Source of the DNA: Candidatus Woesearchaeota archaeon
Lineage (GTDB): Archaea > Nanobdellota > Nanobdellia > Woesearchaeales > GW2011-AR4
Assembly: GCA_016188245.1 (NCBI GenBank)
Contig: JACPIE010000013.1
Span: forward strand, 21,058-85,057
Reading direction: 5' to 3'
Length of the DNA stretch: 64,000 bases
Within the stretch, counting starts at the first letter, position 1. Each line of letters starts with the position of its first letter. The position numbers and the translations under genes were made by a program. Positions 33,966-35,468 of this stretch are shown here, piece after piece. The notes under the pieces were generated by a model, which saw only the letters and a program-made list of their open reading frames with translations, ran no database searches and was not told where the DNA came from.

Positions 33966-35468
33966 TCACCCCTTTATATTCCCCACGGGCTTCAGTCCTA
34001 TAACCGGCTTTGATATTCCAGCCTGTGAAACCGCGTCAATCACATCGTTAATGTTTTTATAGGCAAAACCAGCTTCCTCAGCCAGCCCGGGCATTGAAGT
34101 TGCTTTCACATAAATCCCTCTCTTTTCCATGTCTTTCTGCAATTGCTCTCCTCTTACTTGGTGCTTTGCAGCAGCCCTTGACATTGTCCTGCCGCTTCCA
34201 TGTGCTGTGCTGCCAAAAGTTTCATCCATTGCCTTTTGTGTCCCTACTAGCAAAAATGAGCCAGTTTCCATCGAGCCCCCTATGATTACGGGCTGCCCTG
34301 TGTTTTTGAAAAGCGGTGCAAGCTCAGGATGACCCGGAGGAAATGCTCTTGTGCTTCCCTTTCTGTGAACAACCAATTTTTTCTTGTGCCCATCAACAAC
34401 ATGCTCTTCCAGCTTTGCTATATTATGCGCAACATCATAAACCATGTGCATCTCAAGCTTTTCAGCATCTGTTTTGAAAACTTTTGAAAATCCTTCCCTA
34501 ATCCTGTGTAGAATAACTTGGCGATTTGCAAAAGCCATGTTCGCTGCGCATGCCATTGCCTTGTAATAATCCTGGCCTTCATTGCTTTGGAAAGGGGCGC
34601 ATGCAAGCTCTCTGTCGTAAACCTCAATATTATATTTTTTCATCACTCCTTCAAAAATCCTCAAATAGTCTGTTCCAATCTGGTGCCCAAACCCTCTTGA
34701 GCCGCAGTGAACCATGACAACAACCTGCTCTGGTGTGTGAATTCCAAATTTCTTTGCAATTTCAGCATCAAAGATATTTTCTGCCCTTGCAACCTGTATT
34801 TCTAGATAATGGTTTCCGGAGCCCAAAGTTCCCAGTTGCTTTATTCCGCGTTCCATTGCTCTTGAGCTTACTTTCTCCGGCTCCGCCCAGTCAATCCTTC
34901 CATAGCCTTCTGTCCTTTCCAAATCTTCTTTCCATCCATATCCATTTTCAGCGCACCATTTTGAGCCGTAAGCCATGATTTCCCTGAATTGTGACTTGCT
35001 CGCGTCAACAAATCCTCTTGAGCCGACTCCGGAAGGAACAGTCTTGAACATCGTGTCAACCAATTCTTTTAATTTTGGCTGGACTTCTTTATAGGTCAGA
35101 TTAGTTGTAACCAGGCGCATTCCGCAATTTATGTCAAAGCCGATTCCGCCCGGAGAGATAACTCCTGTTTCTGCGTCAAAAGCAGCAACGCCGCCGATTG
35201 GAAATCCGTAGCCCCACTTGTCTTGCTGTAGAACTAACTACAAAGCAAAATGACCATCGGGCATACAAAAACTGTATTTCTGGATTCCTGGCAGGCAAGC
35301 CACATTCGTTACCTGATTAAAGACACCATTATCCATTTCCGCAAGAAGCTTTTTAGTGGCATATATTCTTGCAGGAACTAGCATTCCTTTCTTATAGGAT
35401 TGCGGTATCTCCCAAACTACATCACTAATTTGCCTGATGTCTTTTGGTCTTTCCAAATTTCGTTCCAT
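33966..35468 (-). CDS. rtcB: RNA-splicing ligase RtcB, reading frame interrupted by a 33-nt in-frame insert carrying TAG
   Basis: ORFs 35238-35468 (ending ...CMPDGHFAL then stop) and 33966-35120 are in the same frame. The stretch between them reads [43 protein letters not shown]. Removing 35217-35249 restores the consensus [10 protein letters not shown] and an ORF of about 489 aa. SD GGAGGA lies before the ATG at 35468. Confidence 0.85.
35217..35249 (-). other. 33-nt hairpin insert in rtcB (candidate BHB-like mRNA intron)
   Basis: mRNA sense: CAU|UUUGCUUUGUAGUUAGUUCUACAGCAAGACAAG|UGG. UUGCU pairs with AGCAA and GUAG pairs with CUAC. The exonic GUC pairs with GAC, which leaves a 3-nt bulge AU|U at the 5' junction. 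Confidence 0.5.

What the first reader, a model, noticed from the sequence alone, without database searches (positions are those of the whole stretch)
35217..35249. rtcB is interrupted by a 33-nt in-frame TAG-containing hairpin inside [10 protein letters not shown]: candidate BHB-like mRNA intron in the splicing-ligase gene itself
The two minus-strand ORFs 35238-35468 and 33966-35120 share one reading frame. Read through, the protein is ...[11 protein letters not shown](TAG)[43 protein letters not shown]... RtcB proteins, as I recall them (for example Pyrococcus), read MPDGH(Q/W)[13 protein letters not shown] with nothing in between.

So exactly 11 codons (33 nt, 35217-35249) are inserted at a highly conserved motif, and the insert carries a stop codon. 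In mRNA sense the insert is UUUGCUUUGUAGUUAGUUCUACAGCAAGACAAG. It folds on itself: UUGCU pairs with AGCAA, and GUAG pairs with CUAC.

The upstream exon bases GUC pair with GAC at the 3' end of the insert, stacking on the UUGCU/AGCAA helix. This leaves a 3-nt bulge AU|U whose second/third position is exactly the junction needed to restore CAU-UGG (His-Trp). That is the helix, 3-nt bulge, helix geometry cut by archaeal splicing endonuclease. The 3' site is less canonical: it needs a G.A pair to complete the 4-bp helix, and I could not find an outer helix.

Three observations argue against simple decay. The gene is otherwise intact with a good SD. It sits in a tight rtcB-ZIP-archease operon. The window also holds a three-intron tRNA-Phe that needs this ligase.

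If the insert is spliced, RtcB would have to ligate its own mRNA, which would be a self-referential regulatory loop. The cbf5 mRNA intron of Crenarchaeota is the known precedent for BHB introns in protein genes.
Basis: partly seen in the sequence, partly recalled or inferred. Interest (0 to 1): 0.88.

Follow-up and report, generated by a model that had tools for sequence, protein, structure and literature searches.

The report
Splicing-type intron inside RNA ligase gene
The gene for the RNA-joining enzyme RtcB in this small archaeon is interrupted by a 33-base tRNA-style (bulge-helix-bulge) intron, so the cell apparently needs RtcB to repair the message that encodes RtcB; only one other archaeal protein gene (cbf5) was known to carry such an intron.

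Summary
Window 35217-35249 (minus strand) is a 33-nt insert with an in-frame TAG between PDGH and WGYG of an otherwise intact rtcB.

Among 160 related rtcB loci, 22 (plus the window) carry short inserts at four sites within about 100 nt:
- Type A: the window's site, 12 cases, 30-33 nt.
- Type B: 7 nt downstream, 10 cases, 30-33 nt.
- Type C: 12 nt, 3 cases.
- Type D: 32 nt, 2 cases.

Seven of the 27 inserts are not multiples of three, and every in-frame one carries a stop. All 27 form a bulge-helix-bulge motif exactly at the junction that restores the frame (random rate 0.0037). Helices show compensatory changes, including one between a synonymous exon base and the intron. Intron-bearing genes have dN/dS of 0.04-0.07.

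This excludes decay, recoding and assembly error. The same window holds a tRNA-Phe with three such introns, and archease sits in the rtcB operon. No other Pfam-assignable gene in the window is interrupted.

Best reading: a BHB pre-mRNA intron cut by the splicing endonuclease and sealed by RtcB itself. No published report was found. A regulatory role is unproven, and patchy presence favours a tolerated, gain-and-loss-prone element.

The parts
35250..35468 (-). rtcB exon 1 (Met1 to His73, ending ...AUG CCC GAU GGU CAU)
   Evidence: ORF list and translation. Pfam RtcB profile positions 1-23 match the end of this piece.
35217..35249 (-). 33-nt BHB intron (type A): UUUGCUUUGUAGUUAGUUCUACAGCAAGACAAG, with in-frame UAG at 35238-35240
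   Evidence: Its removal restores uninterrupted RtcB. Homologous inserts of 30-33 nt lie at the same site in 11 other loci.
33966..35216 (-). rtcB exon 2 (Trp74 to Gly489 plus stop)
   Evidence: Pfam RtcB positions 52-426 match. dN/dS downstream of the intron is 0.04-0.07.
35252..35255 (-). Central BHB helix, exon strand (Ha, GGUC). It pairs with 35219-35222.
   Evidence: Geometry. Pair U-A changes to C-G in L013 and L020, where the U/C is the synonymous third base of the Gly codon (columns 27/59).
35249..35251 (-). 5' bulge A-U|U; predicted cut between 35250 and 35249
   Evidence: The same cut rule (after the second bulge base) reproduces the exact tRNA-Phe exon junctions in this window.
35223..35248 (-). 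Intron hairpin (h'): UUGCU/AGCAA (35244-35248 with 35223-35227) plus GUAG/CUAC (35238-35241 with 35228-35231), loop UUAGUU
   Evidence: Fold. Five of six h' pairs show changes on both sides across 12 sequences.
35219..35222 (-). Central BHB helix, intron strand (Hb, GACA): 3 Watson-Crick pairs plus G.A
   Evidence: The G.A position is G.U in L020.
35216..35218 (-). 3' bulge A-G|U; predicted cut between 35217 and 35216
   Evidence: A cut one base further 3' at both sites would give the same product.
35256..35269 (-). Outer exon-exon helix, 5' strand (UUUGUA.GCCC..U)
   Evidence: MFE and constrained folds. 90.9% of cells are paired with no double changes. Pro codon is CCC in 12/12 type A alleles against 27/119 intronless genes.
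35205..35215 (-). Outer exon-exon helix, 3' strand (GGGGCUACGGA)
   Evidence: Gly codon is GGC in 11/12 type A alleles against 32/119 intronless genes.
35475..35480 (-). Shine-Dalgarno-like AGGAGG upstream of the rtcB ATG (35466-35468)
   Evidence: Read directly from the sequence.
33207..33956 (-). ZIP metal transporter gene, immediately downstream of rtcB
   Evidence: Pfam PF02535, E = 1.3e-47.
32759..33229 (-). Archease gene (RtcB activator), overlapping the end of the ZIP gene
   Evidence: Pfam PF01951, E = 1.1e-37, full length. Archease as RtcB activation factor: PMC10944509 abstract.
37687..37860 (+). tRNA-Phe(GAA) with three BHB introns (37691-37721 acceptor stem, 37739-37766 D-loop, 37784-37824 position 37/38). 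It is a second substrate for the same splicing machinery in this genome.
   Evidence: The spliced 74-nt product is a perfect cloverleaf in ARAGORN. Central helices score 3/4, 4/4 and 3/4.

Best explanation

In the transcript, exon bases GGUC pair with intron bases GACA to form the 4-position central helix (3 Watson-Crick pairs plus G.A). The helix is flanked by two 3-nt bulges, A-U|U and A-G|U. The intron's own hairpin lies on one side and an exon-exon helix on the other.

The archaeal splicing endonuclease is inferred to cut after the second base of each bulge, leaving a 2',3'-cyclic phosphate and a 5'-OH. RtcB, helped by archease encoded in the same operon, is inferred to join CAU to UGG, restoring ...PDGH-WGYG... 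and removing the UAG.

Because the product is RtcB, each new RtcB molecule depends on pre-existing RtcB inherited through the cytoplasm.

Shown here: the insert, its geometry, its conservation and covariation, selection on the exons, and the presence of other BHB substrates in the same genome. Inferred: the enzymes, the chemistry and the self-dependence.

The element is most likely a tolerated intron that is gained and lost often. Its splicing competence is kept by selection because the host gene is essential. It is less likely to be a dedicated regulator.
For: 1. Removing the insert gives a gap-free match to solved RtcB.

2. Of 160 related loci, 22 plus the window carry 27 inserts at four sites within codons 73-103.

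3. Seven of the 27 are 31 or 32 nt, so the downstream frame shifts. All in-frame inserts contain a stop.

4. All 27 fit the strict BHB rule at the one junction that restores the protein: central helix 3-4 of 4 pairs, two 3-nt bulges, cut after bulge base 2. The random rate is 0.0037 per position pair.

5. Covariation. Type A is 85.7% paired against 34-46% when partners are slid; 6 pairs have double changes and 0 of 500 shuffles reach the score. Type B is 97.7% against 43-61%, with 5 pairs showing double changes. L144 keeps the type B structure with an almost entirely different helix sequence.

6. Exon-intron covariation: GGU.../GAC in ten alleles, GGC.../GGC in two.

7. Synonymous exon sites needed for the structure are fixed in type A alleles: CCC 12/12, CAT 12/12, GGC 11/12. 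Neighbouring synonymous sites vary.

8. dN/dS is 0.04-0.07 with dS above 1 among intron-bearing alleles, and equally low downstream of the stop.

9. The BHB conformation is only 1.8 kcal/mol above the MFE.

10. The same window has a tRNA-Phe with three BHB introns. Two of them have 3/4 central helices, so this genome's enzyme must accept the same relaxation.

11. Archease is co-operonic.

12. The inserts come from many independent studies and sites (record titles).
Against: - There is no RNA evidence of any kind. No spliced transcript or near-identical uninterrupted protein turned up (best full-length hit 91% identical), and the exact allele is not on record elsewhere.
- The fold of the single window sequence is not significant by itself (z = -1.49).
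- The 3' site is relaxed: a G.A pair next to the bulge, and only one adjacent outer pair before a 2-nt gap. The outer helix shows no compensatory double changes, only invariance and one-sided changes.
- No splicing endonuclease gene lies in the window, so its presence and type are assumed from the tRNA introns and from literature on DPANN (PMC5829648).
- A second, divergent ligase gene elsewhere in the genome cannot be excluded.
Confidence: 0.87

Rival explanations
1. The intron is real and is cut out, but the loop is not self-referential. In this reading another enzyme joins the exons, either a second divergent rtcB paralogue or a different RNA ligase elsewhere in the genome. Alternatively an intact paralogue supplies the cell's ligase, so this copy's intron has little consequence.
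For: Only 64 kb of the genome is visible. Some organisms carry two RtcB genes (for example E. histolytica, PMC8718801 abstract). Nothing here tests which enzyme seals the exons.
Against: No second rtcB-like sequence is in the window. No near-identical intact protein is in the large collection. The interrupted copy is under strong purifying selection and sits with archease, as expected of the working ligase. DPANN genomes are small (general knowledge).
Confidence: 0.15
2. Decaying pseudogene: a random 33-nt insertion with a stop has killed rtcB in this lineage.
For: Annotation pipelines treat such genes as broken; NCBI names the 384-aa C-terminal product 'RtcB family protein, partial' (P0086). 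The single-sequence fold is not significant.
Against: There is no other lesion in 489 codons. dN/dS is 0.04-0.07 downstream of the stop across lineages that all carry the insert, with dS saturated. The insert itself shows compensatory changes and a fixed geometry. Twenty-seven inserts at four sites all lie at BHB-competent junctions.
Confidence: 0.02
3. Translational recoding: the ribosome reads through the UAG (for example as pyrrolysine), or hops over the 33 nt as in phage T4 gene 60, so no RNA splicing is needed.
For: The window's insert is in frame, has a stop inside a hairpin, and is about the size of known bypass gaps.
Against: Homologous inserts are 30, 32 and 33 nt long. Neighbouring types are 31 and 32 nt and carry UGA, UAA or UAG. 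The 'peptides' they would encode are not conserved, while the RNA pairing is. No matched take-off and landing codons flank the insert (CAU before, AAG at the end, UGG after). Eleven extra residues between His73 and Trp74 of a universally ungapped motif are not seen in any of 119 intronless homologues.
Confidence: 0.02
4. Assembly or consensus artefact in a metagenome-assembled genome.
For: The window's exact allele was not found in any other assembly.
Against: Homologous inserts at the same site occur in 11 other contigs from different projects and assemblers (Rifle, northern California groundwater, Hainich, JGI samples and others). Sequence divergence between them matches that of the surrounding gene.
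Confidence: 0.01
5. The intron is a dedicated regulatory device. In this reading rtcB expression is gated by endonuclease activity, or made bistable by dependence on its own product, and the intron is maintained for that purpose.
For: The location in the ligase gene itself is striking. rtcB has four independent intron sites in relatives, while about 40 other Pfam-assignable genes in this window have none. The structure is maintained by selection.
Against: Presence is patchy. Alleles with A, B, A+D, B+C, D only or no intron are interleaved among proteins at least 84% identical. L084 is intronless but has the type A exon signature. Selection for splicing competence is expected for any intron in an essential gene and does not imply regulation. 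Dependence on its own product gives positive, not homeostatic, feedback (inference).
Confidence: 0.2

Closest known systems
cbf5 pre-mRNA intron of Crenarchaeota (Aeropyrum, Sulfolobus; Watanabe et al. 2002; Yokobori et al. 2009, PMC2738675)
   Same: Both are short introns inside a protein-coding gene for an RNA-processing enzyme. Both are bounded by a (often relaxed) BHB motif and presumed to be cut by the tRNA splicing endonuclease. Both are present or absent among related lineages, so gained and lost. Both are mistaken for frameshifts by annotators.
   Different: The host gene is rtcB, not cbf5. The lineage is DPANN (Woesearchaeota, Nanoarchaeota, Aenigmatarchaeota), not Crenarchaeota. There are four alternative sites, with up to two introns per gene, including a 12-nt one. 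The host gene encodes the enzyme needed to finish the reaction. Splicing of cbf5 was shown experimentally; here it is not.
Archaeal tRNA introns at canonical and non-canonical positions (hBHBh', HBh', hBH and BHL motifs; PMC5829648, PMC4090602)
   Same: The geometry and cut rule are identical. The three tRNA-Phe introns in this very window obey the rule used for rtcB, two of them with the same 3/4 central helix. The size range matches (tRNA introns 11-175 nt).
   Different: The substrate is an mRNA with no tRNA body. The exon strands of the motif are coding sequence, so structure is maintained through synonymous sites.
HAC1/XBP1 unconventional mRNA splicing in eukaryotes (IRE1 cut, RtcB or Trl1 ligation)
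   Same: A short intron is removed from an mRNA by a protein endonuclease that leaves 2',3'-cyclic phosphate and 5'-OH ends. In metazoa the exons are sealed by RtcB. Splicing changes the reading frame or removes a stop (PMC8718801, PMC3400036 abstracts).
   Different: The cutting enzyme would be the tRNA splicing endonuclease, not IRE1. The sites lie in 3-nt bulges of a BHB, not in paired 7-nt loops. No stress-sensing role is known here.
Intein in Pyrococcus horikoshii RtcB (splice junction at Cys98; PMC4150793)
   Same: Another removable genetic insertion sits in the same short, highly conserved active-site region of rtcB. The type D intron lies between the codons for Asp95 and Cys98.
   Different: The intein is removed at the protein level, is hundreds of residues long and splices itself. 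The elements here are 12-33 nt and must be removed from RNA.

Membership tests
Archaeal BHB (bulge-helix-bulge) intron | Two 3-nt bulges on opposite strands separated by a 4-bp helix at the exon-intron boundaries | tested here: met
   Window: GGUC/GACA (3 Watson-Crick pairs plus G.A), bulges AUU and AGU. That is the relaxed form. Full 4/4 helices occur in L020 (type A) and in all type B, C and D inserts. Motif definition from PMC5829648.
Archaeal BHB (bulge-helix-bulge) intron | Cuts at symmetric positions in the bulges give a precise, functional exon junction | tested here: met
   Cutting after the second bulge base restores the conserved protein in 27 of 27 inserts, including seven whose length is not a multiple of 3. 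The same rule yields a perfect tRNA-Phe from three introns in the window.
Archaeal BHB (bulge-helix-bulge) intron | Flanking helices (h' within the intron, h between the exons) supported by evolution | tested here: met
   h' has double changes at 5 of 6 pairs in type A and 5 of 9 in type B. h is 91-93% paired, but with invariance or one-sided changes only. Its support comes from fixed synonymous codons, so the outer helix is less certain.
Archaeal BHB (bulge-helix-bulge) intron | Cleavage by the splicing endonuclease (EndA), giving 2',3'-cyclic phosphate and 5'-OH ends | not testable with these tools
   No endA gene lies in the window. Its presence is inferred from the three tRNA-Phe introns.
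Archaeal BHB (bulge-helix-bulge) intron | Exons joined by RtcB; spliced RNA and free or circular intron detectable | not testable with these tools
   No transcript data are available. No near-identical uninterrupted product is in the protein collection.
cbf5-type archaeal pre-mRNA intron (as an orthologous intron) | Located in the cbf5 gene of Desulfurococcales or Sulfolobales | tested here: not met
   The host is rtcB in DPANN-type MAGs. It is the same class of intron but not the same intron.
HAC1/XBP1-type IRE1 intron | Splice sites in two 7-nt loops of short stem-loops | tested here: not met
   The sites lie in 3-nt bulges flanking a 4-bp helix.
Self-splicing group I or group II intron | Ribozyme core of hundreds of nucleotides; Rfam model match | tested here: not met
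   The inserts are 12-33 nt. There are no Rfam matches in the window at gathering or permissive thresholds.
Intein | An in-frame, stop-free insertion encoding a self-splicing protein domain | tested here: not met
   Every insert carries a stop or shifts the frame.
Programmed translational bypass (T4 gene 60 type) | Matching take-off and landing codons flanking a gap of fixed length | tested here: not met
   There are no matching codons at the borders. Gap length varies between 30, 32 and 33 nt at the same site.

The most novel reading that the evidence does not exclude
rtcB may be a preferred home for BHB introns. Four independent sites are packed into the ~100 nt that encode its active-site entrance, against none in about 40 other assessable genes of this window.

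Two readings would explain that. The first is that intron insertion is catalysed by reversal of the endonuclease/RtcB reaction on RtcB's own message. The second is that the intron couples ligase supply to endonuclease activity, because mature rtcB mRNA is made only when the endonuclease is active and ligase is already present. That would be a self-referential circuit controlling the tRNA-splicing pathway.

Either reading makes this the first archaeal case in which an RNA-processing enzyme's expression is wired through its own catalytic activity on its own mRNA.
Probability: 0.2. Interest if true: 0.92.

Novelty: new member of a known kind. Interest (0 to 1): 0.8.

Why it matters
Since 2002, cbf5 has been the only archaeal protein gene with a demonstrated endonuclease-type intron, and reviews up to 2025 still cite only it.

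This finding adds a second gene family, in a different superphylum. There are 27 natural variants at four sites, enough to read the substrate rules of the DPANN endonuclease directly from evolution.

The host gene is the ligase that completes the reaction. The cell's ability to make RtcB therefore rests on RtcB it already has, a dependency that can be tested and that may matter for how these tiny-genome archaea control tRNA maturation.

There is also a practical consequence. Annotation pipelines call these genes 'partial' or split, so metabolic reconstructions of Woesearchaeota and relatives will wrongly score the tRNA ligase as missing or broken. The same blind spot hid every tRNA in this 64-kb window from ARAGORN and Rfam.

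Tried and rejected
1. Window-wide scan for BHB motifs whose removal fuses two broken reading frames. It gave 160 hits on the + strand against about 147 expected from the background rate. It is uninformative at gene boundaries and was abandoned. I replaced it with a Pfam scan of 67 of the 76 candidate ORFs (9, all of 115 aa or fewer, were left out). That scan found no other truncated family match.

2. Search for a spliced-transcript-like or recently intronless twin among 5.8 billion proteins. None was closer than 91%. An exact-sequence look-up of the 384-aa ORF found nothing.

3. Automated triple-intron search for the tRNA with a strict BHB filter. It returned only spurious Ser or undetermined calls. 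Manual boundaries then gave a perfect tRNA-Phe.

4. Rfam at a permissive threshold gave no relevant family.

5. Repeat or mobile-element origin. The 33-mer is unique in the window even with 3 mismatches. Types A, B and D share no evident sequence with each other or with the tRNA-Phe introns (read).

6. Literature. Five searches and several papers were read, and no report of an rtcB intron was found. The library lacks most subscription journals, so absence is not proof.
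Full report
**What is in the sequence.** On the minus strand, a 76-aa ORF (35238-35468) ends ...[14 protein letters not shown]. A 384-aa ORF (33966-35120) lies downstream in the same frame. Reading through gives [29 protein letters not shown]. Deleting exactly 35217-35249 yields a 489-aa protein. 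It aligns over its whole length with Pyrococcus horikoshii RtcB (612 bits) with no gap at MPDGH(Q/W)GYGFPIGG. AGGAGG precedes the ATG. The next two genes on the strand are a ZIP transporter and archease.

**Structure of the single sequence.** By itself this fold is not significant (z = -1.49).

I used the standard BHB definition of two 3-nt bulges separated by a 4-bp helix (PMC5829648). For the cut position I checked the rule against the canonical 37/38 intron of the tRNA-Phe in this window: the central helix lies 5' of each bulge and the cut falls after the second bulge base.

Under that rule the window reads:
- outer helix, then GGUC
- bulge (AU|U)
- UUGCU..GUAG, loop, CUAC-AGCAA
- GACA
- bulge (AG|U)
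- GGGGCUAC..., the other strand of the outer helix

The central helix has three Watson-Crick pairs and a G.A. This conformation is 1.8 kcal/mol above the MFE.

**Comparative evidence.** One scan of species-representative genomes and one of metagenome contigs gave 160 related rtcB loci. tblastn and alignment show that 22 of them carry short inserts. Together with the window that makes 27 inserts at four positions.

| Type | Position | Cases | Length |
|---|---|---|---|
| A | PDGH\|WGYG, the window's site | 12 | 33 nt (9), 32 nt (1), 30 nt (2) |
| B | 7 nt downstream, inside the Tyr codon | 10 | 30 nt (5), 31 nt (4), 33 nt (1) |
| C | GG\|IGFD | 3 | 12 nt |
| D | GFDI\|NCG | 2 | 32 nt |

Seven inserts are not multiples of three, and tblastn sees the reading frame change across them. 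Every in-frame insert carries UAG, UAA or UGA. So none can be translated through.

At the single junction that restores the conserved protein, all 27 show a central helix with 3 or 4 of 4 pairs, two 3-nt bulges, and either an intron hairpin or, for the 12-nt type, a loop plus a 5-bp outer helix. Random position pairs in the same DNA meet the helix criteria at a rate of 0.0037.

**Covariation.**
- Type A (12 sequences): 85.7% of cells pair, against 34-46% when the partners are slid. Six pairs change on both sides, and no shuffle of 500 reaches the observed score.
- Type B (9 distinct sequences): 97.7% pair against 43-61%, and five pairs have double changes. L144 keeps the structure with a nearly unrelated helix sequence.
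- One compensatory pair links exon and intron. The third base of the Gly codon (GGU in ten alleles, GGC in two) covaries with the intron base opposite it (A or G).
- Exon bases needed for the motif sit at synonymous sites that are fixed in type A alleles: Pro CCC 12/12 (against 27/119 intronless genes), His CAT 12/12 (64/119), Gly GGC 11/12 (32/119). Adjacent synonymous sites vary. These counts are not corrected for shared ancestry. The carriers span 66-92% protein identity to the window's protein.

**The gene is functional.** Among intron-bearing alleles dN/dS is 0.04-0.07 with dS above 1. The region downstream of the stop is as constrained as the region upstream. No carrier has any other lesion. 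This excludes decay. Variable insert lengths, variable stops and unconserved insert 'peptides' exclude read-through and ribosome hopping. Recurrence in many independent assemblies excludes artefact, although the window's exact allele was not found elsewhere.

**Genome context.** ARAGORN and Rfam report no tRNA in 64 kb. Even so, 37687-37860 encodes a tRNA-Phe(GAA) split by three BHB introns, in the acceptor stem, the D-loop and position 37/38. Removing them gives a perfect 74-nt cloverleaf. Two of the three have 3/4 central helices, the same relaxation as the rtcB intron. This genome therefore needs a broad-specificity endonuclease and a ligase. DPANN endonucleases with the L3 loop are associated with heavily disrupted tRNA genes (PMC5829648).

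Pfam scans of 67 of the 76 candidate ORFs found every family match to be essentially full length. So rtcB is the only detectably interrupted protein gene here. No endA gene is in the window, and no second rtcB either.

**Distribution.** On a neighbour-joining tree of the spliced proteins, alleles with A, B, A+D, B+C, D only and no intron are interleaved within the clade at least 84% identical to the window's protein. In the wider clade at least 76% identical, 20 of 34 alleles carry an intron. Types A and B never co-occur, as expected because their motifs overlap. Type A also occurs in distant branches (L020 at 72%, labelled Aenigmatarchaeota; L142 at 66%). L084 is intronless yet has the type A exon signature, which makes it a candidate recent precise loss. 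This pattern indicates frequent gain, loss or allelic exchange. It argues against an indispensable regulatory role.

**Mechanism.** The inferred pathway has three steps:
1. The pre-mRNA folds into the BHB.
2. The splicing endonuclease cuts at U35250|U35249 and G35217|U35216.
3. RtcB with archease joins the exons.

If RtcB is the only suitable ligase, its synthesis depends on existing RtcB. That is a positive dependency, satisfied by cytoplasmic inheritance. I consider a dedicated regulatory function possible but unproven (about 0.2).

The clustering of four sites in the segment encoding the active-site entrance is notable. Type D lies between the Asp95 and Cys98 metal-ligand codons (P. horikoshii numbering; PMC10630183), next to the site of the Pyrococcus intein (Cys98 junction; PMC4150793). 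This clustering is unexplained.

**Comparison with what is known.** The class is known: the cbf5 pre-mRNA intron of Crenarchaeota. In 2009 its authors noted that no other archaeal gene had confirmed pre-mRNA splicing (PMC2738675), and a 2025 paper still cites only that work. I found no report of introns in rtcB or in DPANN protein genes, within a library that lacks most subscription journals. I file it as a new member of a known kind. It has three unusual features: several alternative sites, a 12-nt intron in an mRNA, and a host gene that encodes the ligase itself.

**Verdict.** Confidence that this is a spliced BHB intron is about 0.87, limited only by the absence of RNA data.

Noticed in passing
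window 37687-37860 (+): tRNA-Phe(GAA) interrupted by three BHB introns (37691-37721 in the acceptor stem after base 4, 37739-37766 in the D-loop, 37784-37824 at 37/38). It is invisible to ARAGORN and to Rfam even at E<=1. The spliced product is a perfect 74-nt cloverleaf.
   Followed up: yes
window 36892-37671 (+): A 259-aa ORF with a weak LAGLIDADG-like match (PF14528, E = 3e-4, below the curated cut-off) ends 16 nt before the multi-intron tRNA-Phe. It may be a free-standing or degenerate homing-endonuclease-like gene next to an intron-rich tRNA.
   Followed up: no
L011:3296-3307, L013:3326-3337, L103:1824-1835: A 12-nt insert (UUUAAACCUUAG or AUUAAACCUUAG, carrying UAA and UAG) in rtcB at GG|IGFD. 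It has a perfect 4-bp central helix GAGG/CCUU and a 5-bp outer helix (CCCG/CGGG plus one further pair). The 5' site lies in an 8-nt loop, so it is bulge-helix-loop-like. It would be an exceptionally small intron for an mRNA.
   Followed up: yes
L026:3339-3370, L106:1777-1808: A 32-nt frame-shifting insert at GFDI|NCG with a perfect UGAC/GUCA central helix. It lies between the codons for the two metal ligands Asp95 and Cys98 (P. horikoshii numbering), one codon from where the Pyrococcus RtcB intein is inserted.
   Followed up: partly
L006:278-502: A second, partial copy of rtcB exon 1 with its own ribosome-binding site lies 2.5 kb upstream of the intron-bearing gene. It is 79% identical in DNA and ends just after ...PDGHWG in a degenerate type B-like remnant, with no exon 2. 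It is either a relic of a second allele broken at the intron or a duplication ending there.
   Followed up: partly
L084 (intronless rtcB, 88% identical protein): Carries the exact exon codon signature of type A alleles (ATGCCCGAYGGYCATTGGGGC...) but no intron, and groups next to L026 (A+D). It is a candidate recent precise intron loss.
   Followed up: partly
P0086 and similar truncated products: Public annotation lists the 384-aa C-terminal ORF as 'RtcB family protein, partial' on 14 contigs. Products of 407, 429 and 446 aa also recur. Intron-bearing rtcB genes are systematically mis-annotated as fragments.
   Followed up: partly
window 47773-50007 (+): A 744-aa aspartyl-tRNA synthetase of the bacterial type (GAD insertion domain) fused to a C-terminal aminoacyl-tRNA editing (YbaK-like, PF04073) domain. 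GatA and GatB genes lie nearby (55842-59034). This is an unusual fusion for an archaeon.
   Followed up: no
window 38016-40226, 23116-26849, 18424-20127 (-): Several large ORFs (534-736 aa) have no Pfam match at all, and a run of five consecutive ORFs at 43637-46552 also has none. These are lineage-specific proteins of unknown function.
   Followed up: no
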